Shown here: one piece after another, positions 15,348 through 46,196 of the stretch
Position numbering within the stretch: position 1 is the first letter of the stretch
Layout: the number at the start of each line of letters is the position of its first letter
Origin: a bacterium
GTDB taxonomy: Bacteria; Krumholzibacteriota; Krumholzibacteriia; LZORAL124-64-63
Direction of reading: 5' to 3'
DNA length: 64,000 bases
Assembly (NCBI GenBank): GCA_016719645.1
Contig: JADJYS010000014.1
Span: forward strand, 69,467 to 133,466
The notes under the pieces: generated by a model
Seen by the model: only the letters and a program-made list of their open reading frames with translations
The model's database searches: none
Told to the model about the DNA's origin: nothing
Translations under genes and position numbers: made by a program

Positions 15348-15512
15348 CGCGCCCCCGCCTCGAACCTCGACACCCCTCCTCTTCTTTTTGCACGGATCCC
15401 TCTTTTTGATGTATCATTGTAGGATGTCGGCTCGGGAACCCAGCCGCCCCGTGTCCGGACGACCACCCGTGGGATCGAATCCCATGCATCCCCACACACC
15501 CGATCCGCGAGG

Positions 15513-22418: not shown

Positions 22419-23843
22419 TCAGGAGCGAGCAGGCACCGTGACGATCTTGATGAGGTTGGTGCGCCCCGCCTCGTGCAGCGGCAGCCCGGCGGTAACAACG
22501 ACGGAGTCGCCCGGCGCGACGTGCCCGGCATCGAGGGCCAGGCGCAGGGCGTCGCGCTCCATCTCCTCGAGCGTGTCGCCCTCGGGGGAGAAGAAGGGCA
22601 GCGCGCCCCAGACCAGGGCCAGGCGGCGGCAGATGGCGGCGTTGTCGGTCATCGCCAGCAGCGGCTGCGGCGGGCGCGACTTGGCGACCAGGCGGGTGGT
22701 GCTGCCGCTGGTGGTCATGGTGATGATGGCGGCGGCGCCGATCTCGGCGGCCATGCGGCAGGCGGCGCGGGCCACGGCCTCGTCGCTGTTCAGGCCCGCG
22801 TGCGGGGGGAAGCGCGAGTTCCAGCCGGCGTAGGGGAAGGACTCCTCCGCGCTCGCGGCGATGCGCGCCATGGTGCGCACGGCCTCCACCGGGTAGAGGC
22901 CGACGGCGGTCTCCTCCGAGAGCATCACCGCGTCGCTGCCGTCGAGGATGGCGTTGGCCACGTCCGAGACCTCGGCGCGCGTGGGGCGCGGGCTCTCGAC
23001 CATCGAGCGCAGCATCTGCGTGGCCGTGATGACGGGCACGCCCGCGTCGTTGGCCTTGTAGATCAGGGATTTCTGCACGCCGGGCACGCGCTCCAGCGGG
23101 ATCTCGACGCCCAGGTCGCCGCGGGCCACCATCAGCCCGTCGACCACCTGCAGGATCTCGTCGATGTTCGCGATGGCTTCGCGCTGCTCGATCTTGGCGA
23201 CGATGGGCCGCCGGGTCCCGATGTCGTCCATCGCGGCGCGGCAGGCCAGGACGTCCGACGCGTTGCGCACGAACGACAGGGCCACGTAGTCGACGTTCTC
23301 GGCCAGCCCGAAGCGCAGGTCCTCCAGGTCCTTGTCGTCGAGGATCGGGGCGCTGATCGTGCCGCTCGGCAGGTTGATCCCCTTGTTCGCGCTCAGCTCG
23401 CCGCCGGCCTCGACGCGGCAGACGACGTCCGGCCCGTCGACCTTCTCCACCTTCAGGCAGAGGGCGCCGTCGGCCAGCAGCAGCGTGTCGCCGACGACGA
23501 CGTCGCCGGGCAGGCCCTTGTAGCCGACCGACACCTCGCGATCGTCGCCGGGCACGTCGCGCGCGGTCAGGGTGAACAGGTCGCCCCGGCGCAGCGTCAC
23601 CGGTCCGTCCGCGAAGCCGCCGATGCGGATCTTCGGGCCGGCGAGGTCCTGCAGGATGGCCACCGGGCGCCCGGCCTCGTCGGCCGCGGCCCGCACGTCG
23701 CGGATGGCCCGGCGCTTCACGTCCAGCGTGCCGTGGCTGAAGTTCAGGCGCACGACGTCCAGGCCGGCGCGGACCAGCTCGAGCAGGACGGCCGGATCGC
23801 GGGTGGCCGGGCCCAGCGTGGCGACGATCTTGGTGCGGCGCAT
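22419..23843 (-). CDS. pyk: Pyruvate kinase
   Basis: MRRTKIVATLGPAT...NFSHG...MVARGDLGVEIP...; 474 aa. Confidence 0.95.
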   Translation of the reverse strand: MRRTKIVATLGPATRDPAVLLELVRAGLDVVRLNFSHGTLDVKRRAIRDVRAAADEAGRPVAILQDLAGPKIRIGGFADGPVTLRRGDLFTLTARDVPGDDREVSVGYKGLPGDVVVGDTLLLADGALCLKVEKVDGPDVVCRVEAGGELSANKGINLPSGTISAPILDDKDLEDLRFGLAENVDYVALSFVRNASDVLACRAAMDDIGTRRPIVAKIEQREAIANIDEILQVVDGLMVARGDLGVEIPLERVPGVQKSLIYKANDAGVPVITATQMLRSMVESPRPTRAEVSDVANAILDGSDAVMLSEETAVGLYPVEAVRTMARIAASAEESFPYAGWNSRFPPHAGLNSDEAVARAACRMAAEIGAAAIITMTTSGSTTRLVAKSRPPQPLLAMTDNAAICRRLALVWGALPFFSPEGDTLEEMERDALRLALDAGHVAPGDSVVVTAGLPLHEAGRTNLIKIVTVPARS

Positions 23844-23852
23844 CGGTGCTCC

Positions 23853-28543: not shown

Positions 28544-29044
28544 TTATGACCGAGCCGGCAATTCGAGCAGCTTCTTGCGGGTGTAGGGGATCAGCCCCCC
28601 CGCATCGACGATCGCCTGCCGCGCCGGCGGCAGCGGCACGGCGTCGAACTCCCTGCCGCTGGTCCGGTTCCGCACCTTCCCGGAGGCGAGCTCGAGCTCG
28701 TCCCCCACCTCCGCCTCGATGGTCGGGCAGATGACCAGGCTCAGGCCGAGGTTGATGGCGTTCTGCAGGAAGATGCGCGCGATGCTCCGCGCGACGATGA
28801 CGAGCTCGTGGCCCCGGATGGTGCTCACCGCCTGTTCGCGGCTCGAGCCGCAGCCGAAGTTCTCGTCGGCGACGACGACGCTGCCGGCCGGGATCGCCCC
28901 GGCCTTGAGCTGCGCGTTGAACTCCGTGCGGTCGTGGAAACAGAACTGCGGCGTCTCGGTCGGCAGGACCGTGGCCATGAACCGGCCGGGGTAGATGTCG
29001 TCGGTGCTGATGTCCTTCCCGAGCTTCAGTACGACCTTGCCCAT
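28544..29044 (-). CDS. Aconitase-family dehydratase small subunit (LeuD-like, ~166 aa type)
   Basis: MGKVVLKLGKDISTDDIYPGRF...ADENFGCGSSREQA. Confidence 0.85.
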   Translation of the reverse strand: MGKVVLKLGKDISTDDIYPGRFMATVLPTETPQFCFHDRTEFNAQLKAGAIPAGSVVVADENFGCGSSREQAVSTIRGHELVIVARSIARIFLQNAINLGLSLVICPTIEAEVGDELELASGKVRNRTSGREFDAVPLPPARQAIVDAGGLIPYTRKKLLELPARS

Positions 29045-29045
29045 G

Positions 29046-30338
29046 TCAGCGACCTCCTGCGCGCGGATCGGTGATGACGCCGGTGATGGCGCTGGCCGCG
29101 GCGACGGCCGAGCTGCACAGGTAGACCTCGGATTTCGGGTTGCCCATGCGGCCCTTGAAGTTGCGGTTGGTGGTGGCGAGCGCCACTTCCTCGTCGCCGA
29201 GCGCCCCCTGGTGGATGCCCAGGCACGGGCCGCAGCCCGAGTTCATCACCACGGCGCCGGCCCTCATGAACTCCTGCAGGTAGCCGGCCTCGAGCGCCTG
29301 GGAGTAGATCCGCCCGGAGGCGGGGAAGACCAGCATGCGCGTGCCGGGAGCGACCTGCTTGCCCCTGAGGATCCCGGCGGCGATCTCGAGGTCGTCCAGG
29401 CGGCCGTTCGTGCAGCTGCCGATCACGATCTGCTGGACGGCCTTGCCGGCGACCTCGCCGATCGGCTTCACGTTGTCGACCGTGTGCGGGCAGGCGATCT
29501 GCGGTTCGAGCCGGGACACGTCGACCTCGACGACCCTCTCGTAGACGGCGTCGGCGTCCGGCCGGACCGGCGCGAGGGGCCCCGTGACGCCGGCCTCCTG
29601 GCGCAGGTAGCGCTCGGTCTCGGCGTCGGCGGGCACGAGGCCGCCGGTGGCGCCGGCCTCGACGCTCATGTTGCAGATGGTCAGGCGGCCGCTCGTCGAC
29701 ATCGCCGCGATCGTGTCGCCGTGGAACTCGAGCACGCGGAAGTTGGCGCCCTGGGCCGTGAGCCGGCCGATCAGGTGCAGGATCAGGTCCTTCGGCCCGA
29801 CGTGCTCCTGGAACCTGCCGCTGACGACGACCTTGATGGTCGGCGGCACCTCGATGTTGAGCGCGACGCCGAGCGTCCAGACCGAGGCCATCTCGGTGGC
29901 GCCGATGCCGAAGGCGAAGCAGCCCAGGGCCCCGTGGCTGGTCGTGTGGCTGTCGGTGCCGACGACCACGAAACCGGGCCGCACGTAGCCGCGCTCCGGC
30001 AGGATCTGGTGGCAGATGCCGCCGAGGTCGCCGCGGATGTCGTGGAACTTGGCGATGCCGTGGCGCGCCACGAAGCCGCGGATGAGCTTCTGGTTGGTGG
30101 CGGTCTTGGGCCCCTCGGCCGGCACCCGGTGGTCGAAGATGACGGCGATGCGGTCGGGGTCCCAGGGCTTGGGCTCGCGGCCCGTGCCCTGGTGGATCTC
30201 GTTGAACTGGTTGATGACCAGGGCCGCGTTCTCGTGCGACATGGCGAGATCGACGCGCGGCTCCACGATGTCCAGGGCCCTGACGGCCGGCACGCCCGCC
30301 GCCCTGGCCAGGATCTTCTCGACGACTGTCATTCCCAT
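29046..30338 (-). CDS. Aconitase-family dehydratase large subunit (LeuC-like, ~430 aa type)
   Basis: MGMTVVEKILARA... Fe-S cluster Cys motifs GSCTNGR and NSGCGPC. GAGGAG SD. Confidence 0.85.
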   Translation of the reverse strand: MGMTVVEKILARAAGVPAVRALDIVEPRVDLAMSHENAALVINQFNEIHQGTGREPKPWDPDRIAVIFDHRVPAEGPKTATNQKLIRGFVARHGIAKFHDIRGDLGGICHQILPERGYVRPGFVVVGTDSHTTSHGALGCFAFGIGATEMASVWTLGVALNIEVPPTIKVVVSGRFQEHVGPKDLILHLIGRLTAQGANFRVLEFHGDTIAAMSTSGRLTICNMSVEAGATGGLVPADAETERYLRQEAGVTGPLAPVRPDADAVYERVVEVDVSRLEPQIACPHTVDNVKPIGEVAGKAVQQIVIGSCTNGRLDDLEIAAGILRGKQVAPGTRMLVFPASGRIYSQALEAGYLQEFMRAGAVVMNSGCGPCLGIHQGALGDEEVALATTNRNFKGRMGNPKSEVYLCSSAVAAASAITGVITDPRAGGR

Positions 30339-30364
30339 CGCGACTCCTCGTGAGGTCCGGGGTT

Positions 30365-31570
30365 TCAGATGACGGCCTTCTGCTTGAGTTCGGCGAGCTG
30401 GTCCGCGGTGAAGCCCAGGCGGCCGAGGACCTCGGCGTTGTGCTGCCCGAGCGTCGGCGGCGGCGTGGCGACCGGGCCCGACTCGCCGTCGAACAGGGCG
30501 GTGAGGCCGAAGACCTCGATGTCGCCCAGGCCCGGCACGTTCACCTTCTGCAGGACCCCGCGGTGCGCGATCTGCGGCTGGCGCAGGGCCTGGCCCAGGC
30601 TCAGGATGTCGCCGCTCGGCACGTCGCGGGCGTTCAGGGCCTCGACCCAGTGCCGCGTCGTCTGCTCGGCGAGGCGCGCCTCGAGGAGCGGCGTCAGGGC
30701 CCGGCGGTTCTTCTTGCGCGTGTCGCGCTCCTGGAAGCGCGGGTCGGTCTTGAGCTCCGGCAGTCCGAGGACGTCGCAGACCGCCTCCCACTGCTCCTGC
30801 TTGTTGGCGGCGATGTTGATGTGGCCGTCGCTTGTGCGGAAGGTGCCGCTGGGCGCGGCCGTGAAGTTGTCGTTGCCCATGACCTGCGGCTCCTGGCCGC
30901 CGATCAGGAGGTTCGCGGCCACCCAGCCCATGAGCGGCATGATCGAGTCCAGGAGCGCGACGTCGATGAACCGGCCCTCGCCGGTCCGCTGGCGGTGGAA
31001 GAGGGCGGCCATCACCGCGAACGCCGCGTTCAGCCCGCCCACGGTGTCGCAGACGGGGAAGCCGGCGCGCAGCGGCGTCAGCCGCTCGTCGCCGTTGATC
31101 GCCATCTCGCCGGAGAGGCCCTGGATGATCTGGTCGTAGGCCGGCTTGTCGGCGTCCGGCCCGGTCTGGCCGAAGCCGGAGATCGCGCAGTAGACCAGCG
31201 ACGGGTTGATCCCGCGCAGGACGTCGTAGCCGAGCCCGAGGCGGTCCATGACGCCGGGGCGGAAGTTCTCGATCACCACGTCGGCGTCCTCGGCGAGCCG
31301 CTTGAAGATGGCCTTGCCTTCCGGCGACTTGGTGTTGAGGGTCACCGACTTCTTGTTGCAGTTCTGCGCCAGGAAGCTGGTGCCCATCAGCTGCCTGTTG
31401 TACTCGGGGACGATCCCGAGCTTGCGGGCCAGGTCGCCGTCCCTGGGGTTCTCGATCTTGACGACCTCGGCCCCCAGCAGCGCCAGGTGGAGCGAGGCGA
31501 ACGGGCCGGAGAGCACGTTCGTGAGGTCGAGCACCTTGATGCCGTCGAGCATGCGTACCTGATCGGTCAT
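30365..31570 (-). CDS. Family III CoA-transferase (CaiB/BaiF/Frc-like)
   Basis: MLDGIKVLDLTNVLSGPFAS...VVIENFRPG; 401 aa. Confidence 0.9.
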   Translation of the reverse strand: MTDQVRMLDGIKVLDLTNVLSGPFASLHLALLGAEVVKIENPRDGDLARKLGIVPEYNRQLMGTSFLAQNCNKKSVTLNTKSPEGKAIFKRLAEDADVVIENFRPGVMDRLGLGYDVLRGINPSLVYCAISGFGQTGPDADKPAYDQIIQGLSGEMAINGDERLTPLRAGFPVCDTVGGLNAAFAVMAALFHRQRTGEGRFIDVALLDSIMPLMGWVAANLLIGGQEPQVMGNDNFTAAPSGTFRTSDGHINIAANKQEQWEAVCDVLGLPELKTDPRFQERDTRKKNRRALTPLLEARLAEQTTRHWVEALNARDVPSGDILSLGQALRQPQIAHRGVLQKVNVPGLGDIEVFGLTALFDGESGPVATPPPTLGQHNAEVLGRLGFTADQLAELKQKAVI

Positions 31571-31582
31571 CGCAACACCTGC

Positions 31583-32482
31583 CTAGTAGGAGAGCGGGCC
31601 GGTCCTGTGGACCCGGCCCGGCATCTCGCGTCCGAAATGCGCCGCGACCTCGCGGGCCACGGCGACGATCCCCTCGAGTCCGATCTCCGTGCGCAGGCCG
31701 CCGCGCCGCAGGGCGTGGACCAGATCCTCGGTGGCCACGTTGCCGGCCGCGACCTTGGTGAACGGGCAGCCGCCCAGGCCGGCGAACGAGGTCTCGAAGC
31801 TGGTGACCCCCGACTCCATCGCGGCGTGGATGTTGGCCATGCCGAGGCCGTAGGTGTCGTGGAAGTGGCACGTGCAGCGGATCTCCGGCGCGAGCTGCAG
31901 GATCTCGCCGAACAGCCGGCGCACCTGCGCCGGGTGCGCGTGGCCGGCGGTGTCGGCGAGGCTGATGTTCGTGAGCCCGGCCTCGAGGTAGGCGCGCACG
32001 ATGTCGAGGACCCGCTCCTGCGGGATCGGGCCCTCGAAGCCGCAGCCGAAGGCGCTCTGCACCGAGACCTGGACCCTCTTGCCGGCCGCGACCGCCTCGG
32101 CGGCCGCGGCGATGATGCGGCGCTGCGCCTCCGCGGAACCCATGCCGGTGTTCTTCAGGCTGTGGGTCTCGGAGGCCGAGACGCCGAGGCAGAACAGGTC
32201 GACGCCGCACGCGAGCCCGCGCTCGAGGCCCTTCTCGTTGAGCACGAGGCCCGAGAGGATCGTCCCGCCCCTGGACGCTGCGTCGAGGGCGCGGAAGAGC
32301 TCGTCCGTGTCGGCCATCTGCGGCACCTTTTCCGGGTGCACGAACGAGCCCACCTGGACGATGTCCAGGCCCGCGGCGACGAGCGACCGGATCCACGCGA
32401 GCTTCTGCCCGGTCGGGACGACCTGCTTCTCGGCCTGCAGCCCGTCCCGGAGGCCGACCTCGTGGATGATGATCTCGGCCAT
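31583..32482 (-). CDS. HMG-CoA lyase-like DRE-TIM metallolyase (hydroxyacyl-/citramalyl-CoA lyase family)
   Basis: MAEIIIHEVGLRDGLQ...CHFHDTYG. Confidence 0.85.
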   Translation of the reverse strand: MAEIIIHEVGLRDGLQAEKQVVPTGQKLAWIRSLVAAGLDIVQVGSFVHPEKVPQMADTDELFRALDAASRGGTILSGLVLNEKGLERGLACGVDLFCLGVSASETHSLKNTGMGSAEAQRRIIAAAAEAVAAGKRVQVSVQSAFGCGFEGPIPQERVLDIVRAYLEAGLTNISLADTAGHAHPAQVRRLFGEILQLAPEIRCTCHFHDTYGLGMANIHAAMESGVTSFETSFAGLGGCPFTKVAAGNVATEDLVHALRRGGLRTEIGLEGIVAVAREVAAHFGREMPGRVHRTGPLSY

Positions 32483-32486
32483 CGCG

Positions 32487-33605
32487 CTACACCTTCCGGG
32501 CGATCGCCTCGCCCATCTCCAGGGTCGTGGCGCTGCCGCCCATGTCGTAGGTGCGCACGTCGCCTTCGGCGATGACCCGGGCGACCGCCTGCCCGAGCCG
32601 GGCGCCCTTGTCGGTCTCGCCCAGCCAGTCCAGCATCATCTTGCCGGCGAGGATGGTGGCGATGGGGTTCACCTTGTTCTGGCCGGCGTACTTGGGCGCG
32701 CTGCCGTGGCTCGGCTCGAACACGGCGAGCTTCTCGCCGATGTTGCCGGAGCAGCCGAAGCCGAGGCCGCCCACCATCTGCGCGGAGAGGTCGCTGACGA
32801 TGTCGCCGAACATGTTGGTGGCGACGAGCACGCCGTAGCTCTTGGGGTTCTTGAGCAGCCACATGCAGATGGCGTCGATGTTCGCGTCGTCCATCTGGAT
32901 CCCCGGGTAGTCCTTGGCGACGCGCTTGCCGATCTCCAGGAACATGCCCTCGGTCGCCCGCACCACGTTCGCCTTGTGGATCACGGTGACCTTGGGGTAG
33001 CCGAACTTCTTGGCGTACTCGAAGGCGGCGCGGATGATCCGCTCGCAGCCCTTCTTCGAGTTGATCTTGCAGGTGATGGCGTAGTCGCTGCCCGGCAGCG
33101 CGGCGAAATGGGAGAAGGGCTTGCTGAGCCGGCCCAGGACCTCGACGAGCTCGTCGGGGACCGGGCTGAACTCGACGCCGGCGTAGAGGTCTTCCGTGTT
33201 CTCCCGGAAGATCACCAGGTCGATGCCTTCCGCGTAGTTGAGGGGGTTGCCCGGGTAGGCCTTGCAGGGCCGCAGGCAGGTGTAGAGGTCGAAGGACTGC
33301 CGCATGCGGACGATGGGGCTGCGGTAGACCAGGCCCTTGCCCTGCAGCTCGGGCACGAGCTCGCGCTCCGCGTCCTTCACGGGCTTGGAGGTGATGGCGC
33401 CGAACAGGGCCGCGTCGCAGTTCCCCAGCAGGTCGATGGTGCGCCGGGGAAAGGCGTCGCCCTCCTTGCACCAGAACTCCCAGCCGATGTCGCCGTGCAC
33501 GTAGTCGGCGTCGAGCTTCAGGGCGTCGAGGCAGATCCTGGTCGCCTCCATGACCTCGACGCCGACACCGTCACCGGGCAACCAGGCGATCTTGTACTTG
33601 CTCAT
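32487..33605 (-). CDS. Isopropylmalate/isocitrate/tartrate dehydrogenase family protein (decarboxylating beta-hydroxyacid dehydrogenase)
   Basis: AAGGAGG SD. MSKYKIAWLPGDGVGVEV...NMFGDIVSDLSAQMVGGLG. Confidence 0.85.
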   Translation of the reverse strand: MSKYKIAWLPGDGVGVEVMEATRICLDALKLDADYVHGDIGWEFWCKEGDAFPRRTIDLLGNCDAALFGAITSKPVKDAERELVPELQGKGLVYRSPIVRMRQSFDLYTCLRPCKAYPGNPLNYAEGIDLVIFRENTEDLYAGVEFSPVPDELVEVLGRLSKPFSHFAALPGSDYAITCKINSKKGCERIIRAAFEYAKKFGYPKVTVIHKANVVRATEGMFLEIGKRVAKDYPGIQMDDANIDAICMWLLKNPKSYGVLVATNMFGDIVSDLSAQMVGGLGFGCSGNIGEKLAVFEPSHGSAPKYAGQNKVNPIATILAGKMMLDWLGETDKGARLGQAVARVIAEGDVRTYDMGGSATTLEMGEAIARKV

Positions 33606-33797
33606 GGAACCTCCTTGGGACCCGGGACCGGCCGACCGGCTCGGCCGATCCATGCGGTATTGGAATGATCGGGGGAGCCCCCGCAAACGAATCCACCTGT
33701 CGAAGATGCATCTTTCTCGTTGCAGTAATGATAATTATGATCCATCTTCGCCCGAAACGACAAACGATGATTTAACAGGAGCCTATTCGAAAAAGTC

Positions 33798-34706
33798 ATG
33801 ACCACGAAGCGGATCCTGCCCTCGCTCACCGCGCTGCAGTACTTCGAGGCCTCCGTGCGCCACATGAGCTTCACCCGGGCGGCGCGCGAGCTGAACGTGA
33901 CGCAGAGCGCGGTGAGCCGCCAGATCCGGCAGCTCGAGGAGTACGTGGGCAGGCCGCTGTTCCGCCGCCTCAAGCAGCGGCTGGTCCTGACCGAACCCGG
34001 CGAAGCCTACGCCGCCGCGGTGCGCGACCTGCTCGACCGCGCCGAGGCGGCGACGCTGCAGCTGATGGCCTACGGCAGCGGCGGCGGCGTGCTGACCATC
34101 GCCCTGCTGCCGACCTTCGGCTCGCGGTGGCTCGTCCCCCGCCTCGGCGACTTCACCGCGCGGCACCCCGACATCCAGCTCAACCTGGTGACGCAGGTGC
34201 GGCCGTTCGACTTCGCGGGCAGCGAGATCGACGTGGCCATCCACTTCGGCCGCGAGATCTGGCCGGGCGCGATCTGCCGCCAGCTGATGGGCGAGGTCGT
34301 CGTGCCGGTGGGGGCGCCGTCGCTGCTCGGGGGCGCCAGGCTGGCCCGCCCCCAGGACGTGGGCCGCTACACGCTCCTGCAGCACATGACCCGGCCGCAG
34401 GCCTGGCAGGAGTGGCTCCGCGCCTGCGGCGTGGAGGACAGCGACGGCCGCATGGGGCCGCGATTCGAGCAGTTCCACATGGTCATCCAGGCCGCCATCG
34501 CCGGGCTCGGGCTCGCGGTCCTGCCGCGGTTCCTGATCCAGGACGAGATCGCGAGCGGCCGGCTCGTCGTCGCGATCGACCGGCCGGTGAGGAGCGAGCA
34601 CGCCTACTACCTCGTCCATCCCGAACGCAAGGCGGACCTCCACCGCGTCACGGCGTTCCGCGACTGGCTGCTGGAGCTGTGCGCGACGCAGCGGGACGAC
34701 CTCTAG
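33798..34706 (+). CDS. LysR-family transcriptional regulator
   Basis: Helix-turn-helix FTRAARELNVTQSAVSRQIRQLE. Transcribed divergently from the 33605..28544 cluster. Confidence 0.9.
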   Translation: MTTKRILPSLTALQYFEASVRHMSFTRAARELNVTQSAVSRQIRQLEEYVGRPLFRRLKQRLVLTEPGEAYAAAVRDLLDRAEAATLQLMAYGSGGGVLTIALLPTFGSRWLVPRLGDFTARHPDIQLNLVTQVRPFDFAGSEIDVAIHFGREIWPGAICRQLMGEVVVPVGAPSLLGGARLARPQDVGRYTLLQHMTRPQAWQEWLRACGVEDSDGRMGPRFEQFHMVIQAAIAGLGLAVLPRFLIQDEIASGRLVVAIDRPVRSEHAYYLVHPERKADLHRVTAFRDWLLELCATQRDDL

Positions 34707-34757: not shown

Positions 34758-36278
34758 TTACCTCGCCAGGACCATCTTGCAGGCGGACCGCTCCGTGCCC
34801 GTCTTCACCTCGCAGAAGTAGACGCCGCTCGGCAGGGCGCGGCCTGCATCGTCACGGCCATCCCACCGCAACCTGATCACGCCGGCGGGACGGGACGCGT
34901 CGCTCAGCAGCACGCGCCGCAGCTTGCCGCCGGCATCGAAGACCCGCGCCGAAACCGGGGTGTCGGACGCCAGCGCGAATTCGATCTCGGTGGCGGGATT
35001 GAACGGGTTGGGGTTGGTCTTCACCGTGAGGCGCGCCGGGGGAACCGCCGCCGGCGCGCTGCCCGTGGGGTCGACGACGGGATCGAAGGCGTAGACCGCG
35101 CCCGCGTTGAGCGCGGTGTCGCTGTCCTTGCCGGCGCCGACCAGGACGCATCCGCCGTCGATGCCGACCGCGATGCCGAAATCGTCGTTCTGATTGCCGC
35201 CCGTGGCGGCCAGCCTCAGCAGCTCGGCGCCCGTCGCGACGTTGAAGACGTAGGACAACCCCGTCCGCGGCGTGCCGTAGCCCTGCTGGGTGGCGCCGAT
35301 CACGGCCAGATCGCCCGCGAGCGCGACGGAGCTGCCGAACCAGTCGGCGTAGTCCGCGTCCGCGGGGGTCAGCCTGTGCAGTTCCGCGCCGGTGGCGACG
35401 TCGAAGACGTAGGCCGCGCCGGCGTCTTCGTCCCCGCCGCCCCAGTAGGCGCCGACCAGCAGGGTGCGGCCGCAGATCGCCACCGCATTGCCGAAACGGT
35501 CGTAGGCGCCCCGGTCGCTGGCGGTCAGCCGCCAGAGCTCGACGCCGGTCCGCGGATCGAAGACGTAGACCGCGCCGCAGTCCGTCCTGCCGGGGGCGTC
35601 CCACATGGGAGCGCCGATCACCGCGAACGAGTCCGATACCGCCACCGCGTACCCGAACTGGTTCTGGCGGCCGAAGTCCGCGGCGACCAGCTTCCGCACC
35701 TGCACGCCGGTGTCCGGATCGAACAGGTACGCCGCGCCGCTGTCGTAGATCGAGACGCTGGCGTCGCAGTAGCGGGCGCCCACCAGGACGAACGAGTCCG
35801 AGACGGCCACGGCGCAGCCGAACTGGTCGTTCGCGGCGGCGTCGGCGGCCGTGAGCTTCCAGCGCTGGATCCCGTCGTCGGCCCCGAAGAGGTAGGCCGC
35901 GCCCGCATCGACGGCGGAGTGGTCGTCCCGCAGCGCGCCGATCACGGCACGCAGCCCGCGGAGCCCCACCGCGCAGCCGAAGTAATCGCCGCCGGCCGCG
36001 TCCGCGGCCCTCAGCTTGCGAGCCTGGACGTAACCGTCCAGGTCGAAGACGTAGGCGCAGCCGGAGTCGCCGCCGTCGTCGTCGTTCGCCTGGGCGCCGA
36101 TCAGGGCGAGTTCGCCCGACACGGCAAGGCTGATGCCGAAGCGGTCTCCGAGCGCCGCGTCGGCGGCCTGGATCCTGGTTTCGGTCGGCGTCGCCGACGC
36201 CGTGACGGCGCAGGCCAGACAGGCGAGGATGGTCGACGTCAAAAATCCGATGGGTGACTTCGCATCATCGTTCGACAT
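34758..36278 (-). CDS. Secreted FG-GAP-like repeat protein with C-terminal T9SS-like domain
   Basis: Repeated DxFGxAVAxxGxxxLIGA...YVFD units. C-terminus NPFNPATEIEFALASDTPVSARVFDAGGKLRRVL. Confidence 0.75.
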   Translation of the reverse strand: MSNDDAKSPIGFLTSTILACLACAVTASATPTETRIQAADAALGDRFGISLAVSGELALIGAQANDDDGGDSGCAYVFDLDGYVQARKLRAADAAGGDYFGCAVGLRGLRAVIGALRDDHSAVDAGAAYLFGADDGIQRWKLTAADAAANDQFGCAVAVSDSFVLVGARYCDASVSIYDSGAAYLFDPDTGVQVRKLVAADFGRQNQFGYAVAVSDSFAVIGAPMWDAPGRTDCGAVYVFDPRTGVELWRLTASDRGAYDRFGNAVAICGRTLLVGAYWGGGDEDAGAAYVFDVATGAELHRLTPADADYADWFGSSVALAGDLAVIGATQQGYGTPRTGLSYVFNVATGAELLRLAATGGNQNDDFGIAVGIDGGCVLVGAGKDSDTALNAGAVYAFDPVVDPTGSAPAAVPPARLTVKTNPNPFNPATEIEFALASDTPVSARVFDAGGKLRRVLLSDASRPAGVIRLRWDGRDDAGRALPSGVYFCEVKTGTERSACKMVLAR

Positions 36279-36464: not shown

Positions 36465-39400
36465 TCACCTGACGAGCATCATGTTGCGCTGCTGCGACTT
36501 CCCGTCCGCCTGCAGCCGGTACACGTACGCCCCGCTGGCGGCGTTCCCGCCCCGGTCGTCGCGCCCGTCCCAGACCACGGAGTGCGCGCCGGCCTCCCGG
36601 CTCCCCTCCACCAGGCTCCGCACCTGCCGCCCGCGCACGTCGTAGATGCGCAGGCTCACCGGACCGGCCTGCGGCAGCGAGAAGCGGATGACGGTGGACG
36701 GGTTGAACGGGTTGGGCGCGTTCTGCGCCAGCGTCGCGCCGCGGTCCGGCGTGCCGTCGTCCGCGCCGGTCGGGCTGCCGACCTGGATCGACAGGTTGTC
36801 CACGACCCAGCCCCAGCCGTTGACGGCGCCGTCGGCGTAGAACCGCCAGCGCAGCAGGATCGTGTCGCGCACGGCGAAGGCGTCGTGCAGGTCGAAGACG
36901 TGCGGCCGCAGCAGCGAGGAGCTGCCGGGCGTGCCGCTGTTCCAGGCGGTGACCCAGGCGGCGTCGCGCCGGCTGTCGTAGCCGTCGGCGATCGGCACCC
37001 AGGTGACGCCGTCCTTGCTGCCCTCCAGGATCACGTAGTCCCAGAAATCGCTGTCGCCGTAGACGCTGCCCGCCTCGCCCGGCTCGACCAGCACGACCTC
37101 GTCGAAGGAGACGTAGGCGTTCGACTGGGCGACGACGATCGGCACCGCGAGCATGGCCGTGTAGGCGGCGTTGTCGGGGTAGTCGTGCGGGAAGTGCAGG
37201 GCGCCGCCGCTGAAGCCGGCGTAGGCGCCGATGGTGAACCCGTCGCCGACGAAGTCGCCGGACGTGCTGAAGCTGTTCGTGTAGGCGGAGAGCGGCGCGG
37301 CGTACACGAACACCTCGAGCTCGCGCGTCACCGAGTCGTAGGCGACGCCGCCGCGGAAGGCGCGGGCGAACACGAGGCGCTGGCCGGCGCTCAGCACGGG
37401 CAGCTGCACCAGGGCGTCCTGCTGGAAGCCGCTGGCCGGCAGGGTGGCGCGCCGGACGCCGTCGACGAAGACCTGGGTGGAGTCGTAGGCGGACCGCAGG
37501 TTCAAATCGACGCTCAGCAGGCCGTCGGGGCCCTGGTAGAGGGCGTCGATGAGCGGCTTGAAGGTCTTGCCCGCGACCAGCGAGGGGAACTTCGCGCTCC
37601 AGATGCCGCGGCCGTGGCTGCCGATCACGACCTCGTCCTCGACCTCGGTCATCGACCAGATCGCCACGCTGGGCAGGCCGTTGTCGGCGAGCTCCCAGCT
37701 GGCGCCGCCGTCCAGCGACTCGACCAGGCCGATCTCGGTGCCGGCCCACAGGTGGTCGGGGTCGTCGGAGAACACCTGCAGGTCGTACACCGCCACGTCG
37801 GGGAAGCCGTTGGTGCTGGGGCTGCCGCCCGCGAAGCCCGTGATGTCGTTCCAGGTCTGTCCCAGGTCGTCCGTCCGGAGGATCTTGGGCCGGCCCGCGA
37901 AGCTGAACAGGACGTAGGCGACCGCGGGGTCGGCCGGGTGGGTGGCCAGGCCCGAGATGCCGCCCATGGTCGCGCCCGTGTAGTTCGGCACCACGCCGAA
38001 GGTGAGGCCGCCGTCGGTGGAGACGTGGATGCGCCCGCTGCCGTCCATGCGGGCGCCCGCCCAGACGATGTCGGGATCGGCGCGCGAGATCTTCACGGCG
38101 TGGAAGCTGCTGATCGAGCTCCAGGTCGCCGACGACACCGGGGTGAGCGACCAGCTGCCGCCGAAGTCCGTCGAGCGCCAGACGCCGCTGGCGCCGACGG
38201 CGAGCAGCAGGTCGGGCGCCTGGTTGGTCTTGGCGATCTTGGTGATGAAGGGGGCCAGGCCGGCGCCCGTGTCGCCCAGGCCGCCGGTGGCGCCGTTCCA
38301 GCTCTGGCCGCCGTCCAGCGAGCGCAGGAATCCGTTGTACTGGTAGCCGCCGATCATCTTCAGCGGGTCGTCGAAGTGCCACGAGGTCTCGTAGCCGTCG
38401 CCGCCGATGGCGAAGGTCCAGGGGGCGAGCCGGTCCGGGTCGGGTCCCGAGAACCAGGTGCCGTTGTCCTGCATGCCGCCGAAGTAGGCGCTGGCGCCGG
38501 GGCGCTTGTCGACGCCGTAGAACTGGGTGGTGGTCATGCCGTCGATGGGGGCGCTCCAGTTGGCGGCCTGGCTCGCGGCGACGCCGACGCCGCCGTCGTT
38601 GGTGTTCAGCAGGCGCCAGGCGCCGCCGCCGGTCGGCACCACCGCCAGGCCGTGGTGGTCCACGTGGACCGGCCCGACGCTCAGCTGGCTCGTGGTGCGG
38701 CTGGTGCCCGAGAGCGTGATCTGCCACAGGCGCACGCCGCCGACGTAGACGATGTTCACGTCGGTGGGGTGGCAGACGATGGTGTTGTCGTACCAGCCCT
38801 GCGCGCCCAGCCAGTTGGGCTCCGAGCCGCTCTCGAAGGTCTCGGACCAGGTCGCGCCGGCGTTGGTCGAGATCCACAGCTCGGAGTGGCTGGCGCCCTC
38901 GGCGGCGGCGTAGAGGCGGCTCGTGTTGACCGGCGAGACGGCCAGCTCGAAGCGGCCGCTCAGGTCGGCGATGCCGGTGTTGACGTAGGCCCAGCTGTTG
39001 CCGGCGTTGGTCGACTTCAGGATGCCGCCCTCGTCGACGGTCGCGTACAGCACGTTGAAGTTGCCGGGCGTGGCCACGATCTGCTGGATCTTCTTGACGC
39101 GGCCGAAGGTGCCGATGTCGGTGATCGCGTGCACCTCGGCCCAGTTCGCCCCGCCGTCGGTCGACTTGAAGATGCTCGAGCGCTGCAGCACCGAATCCTT
39201 GTAGCGCCCGACGGTCGTCACGGCCAGCACGACGTTGGCGTTCGCGGGGTCGACCACGATCCGGGCCACGTTGTTGAAGGCCGGGTCGTCGACGGTCGCC
39301 GGCAGGTGCGCCCAGGTCTGGCCGCGGTCGGTCGACTTCAGGATGCCGTTGCCGTTGATGGTGTCGACGTTGAAGAAGCTCTCGCCGGTGCCGGCGTACA

Positions 39401-39989
39401 GGACGTCGTGGTTGCTCGCGGCCATGGCCAGCGCCTGGACCGACAGCACCGGGAAGTCCGACGTCAGGTCGCTCCAGGTGGCGCCGCCGTCGGCGGTCTT
39501 CCAGACGCCGCCGCCCGCCGTCCCGATGTACCAGGTCAGGGCGGCCGGGTCGTCGGGATCGACCACGATCGCGCGGGCGCGGCCGGCGACGTTGCCGGGG
39601 CCGCGGTTCTCCCAGGCCAGCGTCGCGGCGGGCGAGCGCTTCGCCGCGCGCGCCGTGGCCAGCTCGCGCACCAGGTAGCCGGCCTCGTACTCGGGCTCCT
39701 TGCGGTCGGCGGGGATGCGCATCTCGTTCATCAGCCGCGCGAACTCCTCGGGCGCCTCGAAGGCCGGCAGGCCCGCGAGCCGGCGCGCGATGCGCTCGAT
39801 CTTGTGCCCGGCCTTGAAGCGGTCGGACGAGCCGGGCGCGGCGTGGTCGCGACGCAGTTCCAGCTTCGCGAGCTCGCGCGCGAAGGGATCGTCCTGCTCG
39901 CGGATGCCCGAGCCGGCCAGGAAGGACGCGGTGCCGATCGCGAGCACGCCCGCGACGGTCAACAGGGCAGGGATCCGGGAGAAACGCAT
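36465..39989 (-). CDS. Secreted BNR/Asp-box repeat (sortilin/VPS10-like) protein with C-terminal T9SS-like domain
   Basis: Signal peptide MRFSRIPALLTVAGVLAIG. Multiple S-x-D-G-G-x-T-W repeats. C-terminus NPFNPSTVIRFSLPQAGPVSLRIYDVRGRQVRSL. Start set by the ORF-track frame (may be off by 1). Confidence 0.8.
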   Translation of the reverse strand: MRFSRIPALLTVAGVLAIGTASFLAGSGIREQDDPFARELAKLELRRDHAAPGSSDRFKAGHKIERIARRLAGLPAFEAPEEFARLMNEMRIPADRKEPEYEAGYLVRELATARAAKRSPAATLAWENRGPGNVAGRARAIVVDPDDPAALTWYIGTAGGGVWKTADGGATWSDLTSDFPVLSVQALAMAASNHDVLYAGTGESFFNVDTINGNGILKSTDRGQTWAHLPATVDDPAFNNVARIVVDPANANVVLAVTTVGRYKDSVLQRSSIFKSTDGGANWAEVHAITDIGTFGRVKKIQQIVATPGNFNVLYATVDEGGILKSTNAGNSWAYVNTGIADLSGRFELAVSPVNTSRLYAAAEGASHSELWISTNAGATWSETFESGSEPNWLGAQGWYDNTIVCHPTDVNIVYVGGVRLWQITLSGTSRTTSQLSVGPVHVDHHGLAVVPTGGGAWRLLNTNDGGVGVAASQAANWSAPIDGMTTTQFYGVDKRPGASAYFGGMQDNGTWFSGPDPDRLAPWTFAIGGDGYETSWHFDDPLKMIGGYQYNGFLRSLDGGQSWNGATGGLGDTGAGLAPFITKIAKTNQAPDLLLAVGASGVWRSTDFGGSWSLTPVSSATWSSISSFHAVKISRADPDIVWAGARMDGSGRIHVSTDGGLTFGVVPNYTGATMGGISGLATHPADPAVAYVLFSFAGRPKILRTDDLGQTWNDITGFAGGSPSTNGFPDVAVYDLQVFSDDPDHLWAGTEIGLVESLDGGASWELADNGLPSVAIWSMTEVEDEVVIGSHGRGIWSAKFPSLVAGKTFKPLIDALYQGPDGLLSVDLNLRSAYDSTQVFVDGVRRATLPASGFQQDALVQLPVLSAGQRLVFARAFRGGVAYDSVTRELEVFVYAAPLSAYTNSFSTSGDFVGDGFTIGAYAGFSGGALHFPHDYPDNAAYTAMLAVPIVVAQSNAYVSFDEVVLVEPGEAGSVYGDSDFWDYVILEGSKDGVTWVPIADGYDSRRDAAWVTAWNSGTPGSSSLLRPHVFDLHDAFAVRDTILLRWRFYADGAVNGWGWVVDNLSIQVGSPTGADDGTPDRGATLAQNAPNPFNPSTVIRFSLPQAGPVSLRIYDVRGRQVRSLVEGSREAGAHSVVWDGRDDRGGNAASGAYVYRLQADGKSQQRNMMLVR

Positions 39990-40068
39990 GGTACGACCTC
40001 GAAGGGGTAGGGCGTTGGGGAAAGGTCCGGCCGGCGGGTGCCGACAGGATATCAAAAATACGTCTCCG

Positions 40069-46138: not shown

Positions 46139-46196
46139 CAAGAAGAAGAAGCTGACCACCAACGCCGGCGCCCCCGTCGCCGACAACCAGAACCTC

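What the first reader, a model, noticed from the sequence alone, without database searches (positions are those of the whole stretch)
28544..34706. LysR-controlled operon combining LeuB/LeuC/LeuD homologues with a CoA-transferase and an HMG-CoA-lyase-like enzyme: an uncharacterised CoA-dependent catabolic pathway, not leucine biosynthesis
Five co-directional genes have 1-26 bp gaps. In order they are an IPMDH-family dehydrogenase (perfect AAGGAGG SD), an HMG-CoA-lyase-like DRE-TIM lyase, a family-III CoA-transferase, and LeuC-like and LeuD-like subunits. They are transcribed divergently from a LysR regulator across an AT-rich 190-bp region. There is no LeuA/IPMS, but a CoA-transferase and a CoA-ester lyase are present. 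That fits a degradative route for a substituted malate or C5-C7 dicarboxylate, with four steps. The LeuCD-like hydratase/isomerase acts first, then the LeuB-like oxidative decarboxylase or dehydrogenase. Next comes activation to a CoA ester, and finally lyase cleavage to acetyl-CoA plus a 2-oxo or 3-oxo acid. The small (~430/166 aa) LeuCD type resembles the dimethylmaleate hydratase and homoaconitase class. This gene combination is not one of the textbook pathways I know (itaconate, citramalate, nicotinate fermentation), although it overlaps each of them partly.
Basis: inference. Interest (0 to 1): 0.75.

Follow-up and report, generated by a model that had tools for sequence, protein, structure and literature searches.

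The report
Synthase-less 2-oxoacid operon, probably citrate-type
This is a very widespread but uncharacterised five-gene operon that links a 2-oxoacid to its one-carbon-longer homologue (most likely oxaloacetate plus acetyl-CoA to 2-oxoglutarate, via citrate and isocitrate), using a CoA-ester lyase and a CoA-transferase in place of the usual synthase; current annotation misfiles it as leucine, HMG-CoA or oxalate metabolism.

Summary
Five co-directional minus-strand genes have gaps of 4, 12, 26 and 1 nt: Iso_dh-family dehydrogenase (DH), HMG-CoA-lyase family, family-III CoA-transferase, LeuC-like and LeuD-like. They face a LysR gene across a 192-bp AT-rich spacer. It is not a leu operon.

The same gene order occurs in about 55 of 82 related loci from more than 15 phyla, at 72-95% protein identity. 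No transporter is conserved, and LysR appears only in the closest relatives.

In two lineages the lyase plus CoA-transferase pair is replaced in situ by one isocitrate-lyase-superfamily lyase. In others the same DH sits beside citryl-CoA synthetase and lyase, sometimes with a fused aconitase-family gene. So the module is a C-C lyase on a 2-substituted malate, then an isomerase, then a decarboxylating DH.

The DH is NADP-type and resembles E. coli isocitrate dehydrogenase, but it lacks the conserved Asn115.

I favour the citrate series (2-oxoglutarate <-> oxaloacetate + acetyl-CoA; about 0.45), probably run towards cleavage. (R)-citramalate and homocitrate series remain open. Novel and worth biochemistry.

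The parts
33798..34706 (+). LysR-family regulator (GcvA-like subfamily), divergent from the operon
   Evidence: Pfam HTH_1 plus LysR_substrate. It passes the NCBIfam NF008352 subfamily cut-off, 325 against 288 bits. An adjacent orthologue is present in only 9 of 82 loci.
33606..33797 (.). 192-bp AT-rich divergent control region
   Evidence: GC is 0.53, with a core of 0.41. One sigma-70-like site lies on the minus strand, with -35 at 33763 and -10 ending at 33734. A near-palindrome ATGATAATTATGAT lies at 33728-33741. Two boxes are conserved among LysR-bearing relatives: CAAACGAT at 33761-33768 and TCCATGCGGTATTGGAATGA at 33649-33668. Regulator binding is inferred, not shown.
32487..33605 (-). 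NADP-type beta-decarboxylating dehydrogenase (Iso_dh family), a distinct clade with substrate loop YRSPIVRMRQ
   Evidence: Pfam Iso_dh, 1e-84. No NCBIfam equivalog cut-off is reached. BLASTP against E. coli ICDH gives 35% identity, with K305-Y306 matching K344-Y345, the ICDH-specific insert shared, and I98 at the Asn115 position. Against Thermus HICDH, V99 sits at the Arg85 position. The loop is invariant in 84 of 84 loci.
31583..32482 (-). HMG-CoA-lyase-family (DRE-TIM) CoA-ester aldol lyase
   Evidence: Pfam HMGL-like. It passes the NF004283 subfamily cut-off, 281 against 246 bits. The signature motifs RDGLQ, HFHD, GGCP and GN.ATED are conserved against 1ydo and 2cw6. It is fused to the CoA-transferase in L028.
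30365..31570 (-). Family-III (CaiB/BaiF/Frc) CoA-transferase
   Evidence: Pfam CoA_transf_3, 1e-124. The best solved relative is succinate-hydroxymethylglutarate CoA-transferase 9br6, 284 bits. No equivalog cut-off is met.
29046..30338 (-). Aconitase-superfamily hydro-lyase, large subunit (archaeal-type LeuC/HacA clade)
   Evidence: It passes the subfamily models PRK00402, TIGR02086 and TIGR01343 but no equivalog. The Fe-S Cys motifs GSCTN and CGPC are present. The best PDB hits are M. jannaschii IPM/citramalate isomerase (385 bits) and homoaconitase (363 bits).
28544..29044 (-). Aconitase-superfamily small subunit (LeuD-like)
   Evidence: Pfam Aconitase_C. GSSRE is present. The substrate-recognition region is RFMAT, against RYLVY (IPMI), PYLRT (HACN) and RYNLT (P. 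horikoshii). GR[FY]MATVLP holds in all but one of the loci that carry it (one has GRVMATVLP).

Best explanation
The operon encodes a self-contained, thermodynamically reversible module. It interconverts a 2-oxoacid plus an acetyl unit with the next-higher 2-oxoacid plus CO2 and NADPH. This is the chemistry of citrate synthase/aconitase/ICDH, or of LeuA/LeuCD/LeuB. Here the irreversible synthase is replaced by two enzymes: an HMG-CoA-lyase-family aldol lyase acting on the CoA ester of a 2-substituted malate, and a family-III CoA-transferase that moves the CoA to or from the free acid.

The order of steps is as follows. The lyase interconverts R-CO-COOH plus acetyl-CoA with 2-R-malyl-CoA. The CoA-transferase interconverts that ester with 2-R-malate. 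LeuCD-like interconverts 2-R-malate with 3-R-malate. The DH interconverts 3-R-malate with R-CH2-CO-COOH plus CO2, using NADP(H). I put this architecture at about 0.8.

My preferred substrate series is R = carboxymethyl. That gives oxaloacetate + acetyl-CoA <-> citryl-CoA <-> citrate <-> isocitrate <-> 2-oxoglutarate. The lyase and transferase would then form an ATP-independent, CoA-recycling analogue of citrate lyase, and the DH would be an atypical NADP isocitrate dehydrogenase (about 0.45; the confidence value given refers to this full statement including the substrate series).

The likely physiological direction is reductive carboxylation and cleavage: 2-oxoglutarate to oxaloacetate + acetyl-CoA or acetate. 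This could serve, for example, for glutamate-family amino acids in peptide degraders (about 0.55 given the series).

Shown here: gene families, catalytic motifs, conservation, and interchangeability of the lyase systems. Inferred: substrate identity, CoA donor, direction, and the LysR effector.
For: Architecture.
- The gene order is conserved in 45 complete loci and about 10 truncated ones, from more than 15 phyla.
- The lyase and transferase occur as a fusion in L028.
- In Anaerolineae (L060 against L059, syntenic on both flanks) and in Holophagae (L009 against L001), the lyase plus transferase pair is replaced in situ by one isocitrate-lyase/PEP-mutase-superfamily lyase.
- That replacement lyase's best solved relative is the petal death protein, followed by methylisocitrate lyases. 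From memory, the petal death protein is a 2-alkylmalate lyase.
- All catalytic signatures are intact.

Citrate series.
- The same DH type has an identical substrate loop in 84 of 84 loci.
- It lies in a tight cluster after citryl-CoA-synthetase-like subunits and a citryl-CoA lyase. That lyase passes NF004869 and NF004866.
- In a further lineage the cluster adds a fused aconitase-family gene and a 60%-identical DH with the same SPIVR loop and K-Y motif.
- The citryl-CoA lyase keeps the citrate-synthase motifs GFGHRV..DPR, NVDG and ARTAGW.
- The DH shares the NADP 2'-phosphate pair Lys-Tyr, the R-S dipeptide and the ICDH-specific insert with E. coli ICDH.
- The DH also occurs alone among housekeeping genes.
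- No transporter or pathway-specific neighbour is conserved.
- Citryl-CoA and citrate differ from HMG-CoA and HMG only by COOH in place of CH3 (established chemistry). The best solved relatives are HMG-CoA lyase and succinate-HMG CoA-transferase.

Direction. As far as I recall (not checked here), characterised members of the free-acid lyase family and CCS/CCL work towards cleavage in vivo. The DH is NADP(H)-type. Histidine-utilisation genes flank the CCS/CCL clusters. An S9 peptidase flanks the operon here and in Geothrix.
Against: - The DH has Ile at the position of Asn115, which from memory is conserved across characterised isocitrate dehydrogenases (only E. coli ICDH and the NAD-IDH 6ltf were aligned here), and no Arg at the Thermus HICDH Arg85 position.
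- It belongs to a broader uncharacterised clade that shares the S-P-[IV]-[VI] loop.
- The LeuD recognition region has no basic residue.
- The hydro-lyase is always of the IPMI/homoaconitase clade, never AcnA or AcnB. The fused version passes the 'homoaconitase' equivalog model.
- The only biochemically characterised adjacent pair of an HMGL-family lyase and a family-III transferase, in Chloroflexus, acts on (R)-citramalate. The EC numbers appear in PMC8307300; the details are from memory.
- The replacing free-acid lyase resembles enzymes that, from memory, release pyruvate or 2-oxoalkanoates.
- The CCS/CCL association comes from only two lineages, the Thermoanaerobaculia/Acidobacteriota-labelled loci and one further unnamed lineage.
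- Nothing was tested biochemically.
Confidence: 0.45

Rival explanations
1. Same architecture with R = methyl. Pyruvate + acetyl-CoA <-> (R)-citramalyl-CoA <-> (R)-citramalate <-> citraconate <-> (2R,3S)-3-methylmalate <-> 2-oxobutyrate + CO2. Run forward, this is a CimA-independent citramalate route to isoleucine. Run in reverse, it disposes of 2-oxobutyrate without propionyl-CoA.
For: - The only characterised adjacent pair of this kind is the Chloroflexus (R)-citramalyl-CoA lyase (HMGL family, EC 4.1.3.46) with succinyl-CoA:(R)-citramalate CoA-transferase (family III, EC 2.8.3.20). A review proposes this pair as an indirect citramalate synthase (PMC8307300).
- The best solved relatives of both LeuC and LeuD are the M. 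jannaschii IPM/citramalate isomerase subunits.
- The LeuD recognition region is uncharged.
- The DH has Ile and Val where IPMDH has Leu-Leu, by my memory of the Thermus IPMDH numbering combined.
- The displacing lyase is closest to the petal death protein and to methylisocitrate lyase. From memory, these are pyruvate- or 2-oxoalkanoate-forming enzymes.
- The stereochemistry (R-series) is consistent throughout.
Against: - It does not explain why the same DH sits in operons with citryl-CoA synthetase and lyase.
- NADP specificity is unlike the IPMDH-type enzymes known to me (from memory; for the motif).
- There is no link to ilv or leu genes in about 1.3 Mb of flanks.
- The invariant Ser96 and Arg100 next to the pocket are odd for an alkyl group.
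- Orthology to the Chloroflexus genes could not be tested. The papers are not held, and Chloroflexus was not among the listed homologues.
Confidence: 0.22
2. Same architecture with R = carboxyethyl. 2-oxoglutarate + acetyl-CoA <-> homocitryl-CoA <-> homocitrate <-> homoisocitrate <-> 2-oxoadipate. This would be a synthase-less first half of the alpha-aminoadipate pathway, or its reverse for 2-oxoadipate catabolism.
For: - The DH's best NCBIfam scores are to methanogen homoisocitrate dehydrogenases.
- Its loop resembles Thermus HICDH (Ile conserved, with an Arg one position further on).
- LeuC passes the hacA_fam subfamily model, and its CGPCLGxHQG and NRNFKGRMG motifs match M. jannaschii homoaconitase.
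- The fused hydro-lyase in the CCS/CCL clusters passes the homoaconitase equivalog model.
Against: - The LeuD region lacks the Arg of the homoaconitase YLRT motif.
- No lysW/X/Y/Z or other aminoadipate-pathway genes lie nearby.
- By general knowledge, the host phyla use the diaminopimelate route.
- Known HICDHs are NAD-dependent (from memory).
- Citrate-synthase-fold lyases are not known to use 2-oxoglutarate.
Confidence: 0.1
3. This is an inducible catabolic route for an exogenous substituted malate or C5-C7 dicarboxylate. LeuCD acts first, then the DH, then CoA activation, then lyase cleavage.
For: A divergent LysR regulator is present here and in the closest relatives. The proteins are not biosynthetic equivalogs.
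Against: - The step order is chemically inconsistent, because a 2-oxoacid cannot feed the transferase and lyase.
- No transporter is conserved.
- Most loci lack a regulator.
- The DH occurs alone in housekeeping contexts.
- A CoA-independent lyase can replace the CoA steps.
Confidence: 0.05
4. A variant leucine operon (R = isopropyl). LeuA is replaced by the lyase plus the transferase, or the operon is a split leu operon with inserted genes.
For: The family-level resemblance to LeuB, LeuC and LeuD. The hydrophobic residues in the DH loop.
Against: - All LeuB, LeuC and LeuD equivalog cut-offs are missed by wide margins.
- The DH is NADP-type.
- The LeuD region differs from the IPMI motif.
- The operon is never linked to ilv or leuA genes.
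- The lyase and transferase are integral conserved members of the operon, not insertions.
Confidence: 0.04

Closest known systems
Citryl-CoA synthetase / citryl-CoA lyase + aconitase + NADP-ICDH segment of the reductive TCA cycle (Hydrogenobacter type), and bacterial citrate lyase CitDEF
   Same: Under the preferred reading the net chemistry is the same. Citrate is activated to a thioester and then split by retro-Claisen cleavage to oxaloacetate plus an acetyl thioester, coupled to an aconitase-type isomerase and an NADP-dependent decarboxylating dehydrogenase. CitF and CitE likewise combine an acyl transferase with a lyase. The same DH clade is found next to genuine CCS/CCL genes.
   Different: The proteins are non-homologous: an HMGL/DRE-TIM lyase instead of a citrate-synthase-fold or CitE lyase, and a family-III CoA-transferase instead of an ATP-dependent ligase or the ACP system. 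The hydro-lyase is a two-subunit IPMI/HACN-clade enzyme instead of AcnA or AcnB. The DH lacks Asn115.
Chloroflexus aurantiacus (R)-citramalyl-CoA lyase (Ccl, EC 4.1.3.46) + succinyl-CoA:(R)-citramalate CoA-transferase (Sct, EC 2.8.3.20)
   Same: An adjacent, co-transcribed HMGL-family lyase and family-III CoA-transferase act on a 2-substituted malate. The adjacency and co-transcription are from my memory of Friedmann et al. 2006 and 2007. The EC entries and the proposed reverse use are in PMC8307300.
   Different: Orthology is untested. I know of no characterised association of that pair with a LeuCD-like isomerase and an NADP dehydrogenase. The substrate here is unknown.
LeuA/CimA/homocitrate synthase - LeuCD/HACN - LeuB/HICDH 2-oxoacid elongation modules
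   Same: The isomerase and the oxidative decarboxylation step come from the same superfamilies. The overall logic is one-carbon elongation.
   Different: There is no synthase and no thioester hydrolysis, so the sequence is reversible. The DH is NADP-type. No equivalog threshold is met.
Dimethylmaleate hydratase DmdAB + 2,3-dimethylmalate lyase (nicotinate fermentation); petal death protein
   Same: Variant (b) pairs a LeuCD-like hydro-lyase with an isocitrate-lyase-superfamily 2-alkylmalate lyase. The petal death protein is the best solved relative of that lyase.
   Different: A decarboxylating dehydrogenase is an obligatory partner here. No nicotinate-pathway genes are present. In the window itself the free-acid lyase is replaced by the CoA-dependent pair.

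Membership tests
Prokaryotic NADP-isocitrate dehydrogenase (E. coli type) | Catalytic and metal residues Tyr160, Lys230', Asp283', Asp307, Asp311, and Arg119/129/153 | tested here: met
   BLASTP to the verified E. coli ICDH sequence: Y141, K211, D244, D268, D272, R102, R112, R134.
Prokaryotic NADP-isocitrate dehydrogenase (E. coli type) | NADP 2'-phosphate determinants Lys344-Tyr345 (and Val351, Tyr391) | tested here: met
   APKYAGQNKVNP aligns to APKYAGQDKVNP. The role of these residues is from established literature, recalled from memory.
Prokaryotic NADP-isocitrate dehydrogenase (E. coli type) | Ser113-x-Asn115 pair that binds the gamma-carboxylate of isocitrate | tested here: not met
   Ser96 is kept but Asn115 is Ile98, and Ala117 is Arg100. 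This holds in 84 of 84 loci. The TIGR00183 score is 212 against a cut-off of 567.
3-isopropylmalate dehydrogenase (LeuB) | Equivalog HMM score and an NAD-specific Asp-Ile at the cofactor site | tested here: not met
   TIGR00169 scores 193 against a cut-off of 353. Lys-Tyr stands in place of Asp-Ile.
Homoisocitrate dehydrogenase | Arg85 (Thermus numbering) recognising the distal carboxylate, and the equivalog HMM score | tested here: not met
   Val99 aligns to Arg85. AksF2 scores 329 against a cut-off of 540. An Arg follows one position later, and its role is unknown.
HMG-CoA lyase family (DRE-TIM metallolyase) | Signature motifs RDGLQ, HxH metal ligands, the GGCP Cys loop and GN.ATED; subfamily HMM | tested here: met
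   Aligned to 1ydo, 6nds, 2ftp and 2cw6. NF004283 scores 281 against a cut-off of 246.
HMG-CoA lyase family (DRE-TIM metallolyase) | Substrate is HMG-CoA, as in leucine or ketone-body metabolism | not testable with these tools
   The context argues against it. No liu or mvaS genes are present, and the obligatory partners are an aconitase-type isomerase and a decarboxylating DH.
Family-III CoA-transferase | Full-length CoA_transf_3 domain | tested here: met
   Pfam 1.4e-124 over 366 of 366 profile positions. No equivalog is met (Frc, YfdE, CaiB, succinate-glutarate, mesaconate).
Aconitase superfamily, heterodimeric LeuCD/HACN type | Three Fe-S cysteines (GSCTN, CGPC), the DSHT and NRNF.GR motifs in the large subunit, and GSSRE in the small subunit | tested here: met
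   Alignments to 4nqy, 4kp2 and 1c96 and to 3vba, 2pkp and 1v7l.
Aconitase superfamily, heterodimeric LeuCD/HACN type | Small-subunit recognition region matching IPMI (YLVY) or HACN (YLRT) | tested here: not met
   The region is FMAT, matching neither. It is conserved across the family. The concept of the recognition region is from PMC7308503.
(R)-citramalyl-CoA lyase / succinyl-CoA:(R)-citramalate CoA-transferase system | Orthology to Chloroflexus Ccl and Sct, and activity on (R)-citramalate | not testable with these tools
   The reference sequences and papers are not available. Only the family-level pairing is met.
LysR-regulated divergent operon | Divergent LysR gene with a conserved operator in the spacer | tested here: inconclusive
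   The gene is present. Conserved boxes and a near-palindrome lie in the spacer. Binding and the effector are untested, and the regulator is absent from most loci.

The most novel reading that the evidence does not exclude
The operon is the commonest of three interchangeable solutions for a heterotrophic 'reverse oxidative branch' of the TCA cycle: 2-oxoglutarate -> isocitrate -> citrate -> oxaloacetate + acetyl-CoA or acetate. The three solutions are an HMGL-family lyase with a family-III CoA-transferase, an isocitrate-lyase-superfamily free-acid lyase, and CCS/CCL. This reading would define four new activities: a citryl-CoA lyase in the HMG-CoA-lyase family; a citrate CoA-transferase in family III; a small two-subunit aconitase of the IPMI/HACN clade; and a new class of NADP isocitrate dehydrogenase that lacks the Asn conserved in characterised ICDHs. 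The route would be present in many hundreds of mostly uncultured species.
Probability: 0.35. Interest if true: 0.85.

Novelty: new variant of a known kind. Interest (0 to 1): 0.7.

Why it matters
The genes are abundant. They span Acidobacteriota, Chloroflexota, Ignavibacteriota, Latescibacterota, Gemmatimonadota, Bacteroidota, Verrucomicrobiota and others.

Sources name the proteins 3-isopropylmalate dehydrogenase, CoA:oxalate or formyl-CoA transferase, or only by family. The lyase and LeuCD-like proteins reach only HMG-CoA-lyase and IPM-dehydratase family-level models. Metabolic reconstructions of these uncultured lineages could therefore wrongly credit leucine biosynthesis, leucine or ketone-body degradation, and oxalate metabolism.

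If the citrate reading is right, it reveals an ATP-independent way to make or split citrate and an unrecognised ICDH class. That bears on how anaerobes run partial or reverse TCA branches. If the citramalate reading is right, it gives a synthase-free, reversible link between pyruvate and 2-oxobutyrate. Either way, a handful of enzyme assays would settle a directly testable question.

Tried and rejected
- Literature. Ten full-text searches found no description of this synteny, nor of a citrate CoA-transferase paired with an HMGL-type citryl-CoA lyase. The Friedmann 2006 and 2007 Chloroflexus papers and Jeyakanthan 2010 are not held.
- I tried to reach the Chloroflexus ccl/sct cluster by searching with a Chloroflexota CoA-transferase. 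All 120 listed hits were Anaerolineae-type orthologues of 83% identity or more.
- Neighbourhood enrichment for transporters, regulators, or ilv, lys or TCA genes found nothing beyond the CCS/CCL loci.
- Insertions inside the operon in L028, L035 and L038 are unrelated genes (DNA methylase, histidine kinase, radical SAM, CAAX protease).
- Genes next to 'DH alone' loci are housekeeping genes and uninformative.
- The 50%-representative search gave no named sister family. It showed only a wider uncharacterised clade and Iso_dh fusions whose C-terminal half looks CinA-like by eye.
- A T-N11-A scan for LysR boxes was too unspecific to use.
- Intrinsic-terminator scans found nothing meaningful after LeuD.
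- Rejected: HMG as the substrate, because an aconitase-type enzyme needs a 2-hydroxy acid.
- Rejected: R = H (malate), because an isomerase would then be pointless.
- Rejected: the methylcitrate cycle, because 2-methylisocitrate is a tertiary alcohol that the DH cannot oxidise.

Full report
**1. What is in the sequence**

The window is about 71% G+C, so raw ORF lists are full of shadows. Codon-position G+C and translations resolve five minus-strand genes:
- an Iso_dh-family dehydrogenase (DH), 32487-33605, 372 aa, with AAGGAGG 5 nt before the ATG;
- an HMGL-like protein, 31583-32482, 299 aa;
- a family-III CoA-transferase, 30365-31570, 401 aa;
- a LeuC-like large subunit, 29046-30338, 430 aa;
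- a LeuD-like small subunit, 28544-29044, 166 aa.

The gaps are 4, 12, 26 and 1 nt. A LysR gene (33798-34706, plus strand) diverges across 192 bp. That spacer has G+C 0.53, with a core of 0.41, against 0.713 for the window.

Pfam confirms every family. The flanks are unrelated: an S9 peptidase converges on LeuD, and an FG-GAP/FlgD_ig protein converges on LysR. A profile search finds no other HMGL/LeuA-, Iso_dh-, aconitase- or CoA_transf_3-type ORF in the 64 kb.

**2. It is not a leu operon**

Against NCBIfam, none of the DH, LeuC-like or LeuD-like proteins reaches an equivalog cut-off:
- leuB 193 against 353;
- LEU2 428 against 611;
- leud 111 against 246.

Only broad subfamily models are passed: HMG-CoA lyase NF004283, and the LeuC/HacA family models. 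The best solved relatives are:
- NAD-IDH and Thermus homoisocitrate dehydrogenase for the DH;
- HMG-CoA lyases for the lyase;
- succinate-hydroxymethylglutarate CoA-transferase for the transferase;
- the M. jannaschii IPM/citramalate isomerase and homoaconitase for LeuCD.

Catalytic signatures are intact in all:
- HMGL has RDGLQ, HFHD, GGCP and GN.ATED.
- LeuC has GSCTN and CGPC, and LeuD has GSSRE.
- The DH has Tyr, Lys, three Asp and three Arg.

**3. Distribution**

The DH has homologues of 81-100% identity labelled Gemmatimonas, Geothrix, Holophaga, Aminicenantes, GN15 and Acidobacteria.

I scanned one genome per species with two DH-specific peptides. The best 80 loci are 72-95% identical and come from more than 15 phyla.

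tblastn of the window proteins shows the order DH-HMGL-CoAT-LeuC-LeuD in 45 complete loci plus about 10 cut by contig ends, out of 82. LysR is adjacent in only 9.

The window is 92% identical in DNA over 21 kb to a MAG labelled Candidatus Latescibacterota (L005). Another MAG (L025) shares 89% DNA identity only across LysR plus the operon. That indicates transfer as a cassette.

Among the 139 nearest neighbour genes there are 160 Pfam families. No transporter or pathway gene recurs.

**4. Natural experiments that define the architecture**

(a) In L028 the lyase and the transferase are one 701-aa fusion protein.

(b) In five loci from five phyla, the lyase plus transferase pair is replaced by one gene of about 310 aa. 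These are Holophaga L009, Ignavibacteriae L057, Anaerolineae L060, Gaiellales L081 and Aminicenantes L084. The gene belongs to the isocitrate-lyase/PEP-mutase superfamily, carries the KRCGH motif, and the five copies are about 80% identical to each other.
- Its best solved relative is the petal death protein (from memory, a 2-alkylmalate lyase/oxaloacetase), ahead of methylisocitrate lyases.
- The replacement is in situ. L060 and L059 are syntenic on both flanks, and L009 and L001 are syntenic upstream.
- A CoA-independent lyase for a hydroxy-acid can therefore substitute for 'CoA-transferase plus CoA-ester lyase'.
- This fixes the role of the pair as cleavage or formation of a 2-substituted malate, via its CoA ester, into a 2-oxoacid plus an acetyl unit.
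- The LeuCD-type isomerase then connects this tertiary alcohol to the secondary alcohol that an Iso_dh-family enzyme can oxidise and decarboxylate.

The module has the chemistry of citrate synthase-aconitase-ICDH or LeuA-LeuCD-LeuB. No thioester is hydrolysed, so it is reversible.

**5. Which substrate series?**

Evidence for citrate/isocitrate:

(c) In Thermoanaerobaculia/Acidobacteriota-labelled loci (L023, L029, L030, L032, L047, L052, L087, L089), the same DH is the last gene of a tight cluster.
- The DH is 59-77% identical to the window protein.
- The cluster is CcsA-like (ATP-grasp_2 plus Citrate_bind), then CcsB-like, then citryl-CoA lyase, then the DH.
- The lyase passes two NCBIfam citryl-CoA-lyase subfamily cut-offs.
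- It keeps the citrate-synthase motifs GFGHRV..DPR, NVDG and ARTAGW.

(d) In another lineage (L085, L086, L088), the CCS/CCL genes are followed within about 8 kb by two further genes.
- One is a fused aconitase-family gene.
- The other is a 372-aa DH, 60% identical to ours, with the same loop and cofactor motif.

The DH substrate loop YRSPIVRMRQ is invariant in all 84 loci. The LeuD region GR[FY]MATVLP holds in all but one of the loci that carry it (one has GRVMATVLP). Whatever the substrate is, it is therefore the same in variants a, b and c.

I verified my recalled E. coli ICDH sequence as identical to PDB 1ai2. Aligned to it, the DH shares three features:
- the NADP-specific Lys344-Tyr345 (APKYAGQ.KVNP);
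- Arg112-Ser113;
- an ungapped match to the ICDH-specific insert.

The DH also occurs alone among housekeeping genes in about ten loci. Chemically, citryl-CoA and citrate are HMG-CoA and HMG with COOH in place of CH3, which fits the closest solved relatives of the lyase and the transferase.

Evidence against citrate/isocitrate:
- Asn115, conserved in the isocitrate dehydrogenases known to me (checked here only against E. coli ICDH and 6ltf), is Ile98. Arg85 of the isocitrate-active Thermus HICDH aligns with Val99. An invariant Arg100 follows, and its orientation cannot be judged without coordinates.
- The DH belongs to a wider uncharacterised clade with an S-P-[IV]-[VI] loop. That clade includes NAD-type members and fusions of about 730 aa whose C-terminal half looks CinA-like by eye.
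- The LeuD substrate-recognition region (a concept from PMC7308503) is RFMAT. It has no basic residue, whereas homoaconitase has PYLRT.
- The hydro-lyases are always of the IPMI/HACN clade. The fused one even passes the 'homoaconitase' equivalog.
- The only characterised adjacent HMGL-family plus family-III pair I know, from Chloroflexus, acts on (R)-citramalate. The EC numbers 4.1.3.46 and 2.8.3.20, and a published suggestion that the pair could make citramalate, are in PMC8307300. The adjacency is from memory.

I weigh the repeated physical linkage of this DH type to citryl-CoA enzymes and an aconitase-family gene, its NADP/ICDH-like build, and the lack of any ilv, leu or lys linkage more heavily than single-residue arguments. 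My estimates are:
- citrate series about 0.45;
- citramalate about 0.22;
- homocitrate about 0.10;
- isopropylmalate or another R for the remainder.

**6. Direction and role (inference)**

As far as I recall (not checked here), characterised members of the free-acid lyase family and CCS/CCL work physiologically towards cleavage. The DH is NADP(H)-type.

With CoA recycling, citrate cleavage needs no ATP, whereas condensation without thioester hydrolysis is thermodynamically uphill at physiological concentrations.

Histidine-utilisation genes, which yield glutamate, flank the CCS/CCL clusters. Peptidases flank the operon here and in Geothrix.

I therefore lean towards 2-oxoglutarate -> isocitrate -> citrate -> oxaloacetate + acetyl-CoA or acetate. 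This would be a redox-consuming outlet for glutamate-family carbon. An energy-saving synthetic direction cannot be excluded.

In this window the cassette carries its own LysR regulator. Two conserved boxes and a near-palindrome overlap a sigma-70-like promoter in the spacer. The effector is unknown.

**7. Novelty and verdict**

No paper in the searchable library describes this synteny. The parts belong to known families and the overall chemistry is a known kind. The combination is new in two respects: a synthase is replaced by a lyase plus a CoA-transferase, and that pair is interchangeable with two other lyase systems. The DH clade also appears uncharacterised. I class it as a new variant of a known kind with high practical relevance for annotation, and I score interest at 0.7. 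The key uncertainty is the identity of R, and a few enzyme assays would resolve it.

Noticed in passing
window 34758-36278, 36465-40055, 15423-18053, 54280-55509: At least four large predicted secreted proteins end in a FlgD_ig domain (FG-GAP repeats, Sortilin/BNR, a trypsin-like protease, and one unknown). This looks like a lineage-specific C-terminal sorting or anchoring tag.
   Followed up: no
L028 11275-13380: The HMGL-like lyase and the family-III CoA-transferase are fused into one 701-aa protein in an uncultured bacterium. In the same locus, a DNA methylase, a histidine kinase, a response regulator and a radical-SAM gene are inserted before LeuC.
   Followed up: partly
L025 8922-15056 vs window 28551-34685: 89% nucleotide identity is confined exactly to LysR plus the five genes, and the flanks are unrelated. 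This indicates recent horizontal transfer of the 6.1-kb cassette. AAA_14/DUF4143 ATPase genes sit next to the operon in Geothrix and Aminicenantes loci.
   Followed up: partly
proteins P0370, P0372, P0374, P0376, P0379: These proteins of about 730 aa fuse an Iso_dh domain (42-46% identical to the window DH, loop Y.SPVIQLRQ) to a C-terminal domain that looks CinA/MoCF-like by eye. P0387 carries a different C-terminal extension. Function is unknown and the domain was not checked with Pfam.
   Followed up: no
L085 12635-14731, L086 12175-14211, L088 14632-16776: Bacterial fused LeuC-LeuD-type proteins lie near citryl-CoA synthetase and lyase genes; the L085 and L086 ones (the two tested) pass the fungal-type 'homoaconitase' equivalog model (700-712 bits against a cut-off of 530). 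Either the model over-reaches, or these clusters handle homocitrate.
   Followed up: partly
window 33649-33668 and 33761-33768: Two sequence boxes in the divergent spacer are conserved among LysR-bearing relatives from different lineages: TCCATGCGGTATTGGAATGA and CAAACGAT. They are candidate operator elements.
   Followed up: partly
window 46008-47594, 8723-11512, 22419-23852: A catalase, a xanthine-dehydrogenase-family molybdoenzyme and a pyruvate kinase are encoded nearby. The host is probably not a strict anaerobe, which bears on the proposed physiological direction.
   Followed up: no
window 29046-32396 (minus) and many others: Very long spurious ORFs, such as a 1116-aa read-through covering LeuC, CoAT and HMGL in another frame, arise from the 71% G+C content. 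ORF length alone is misleading here.
   Followed up: yes
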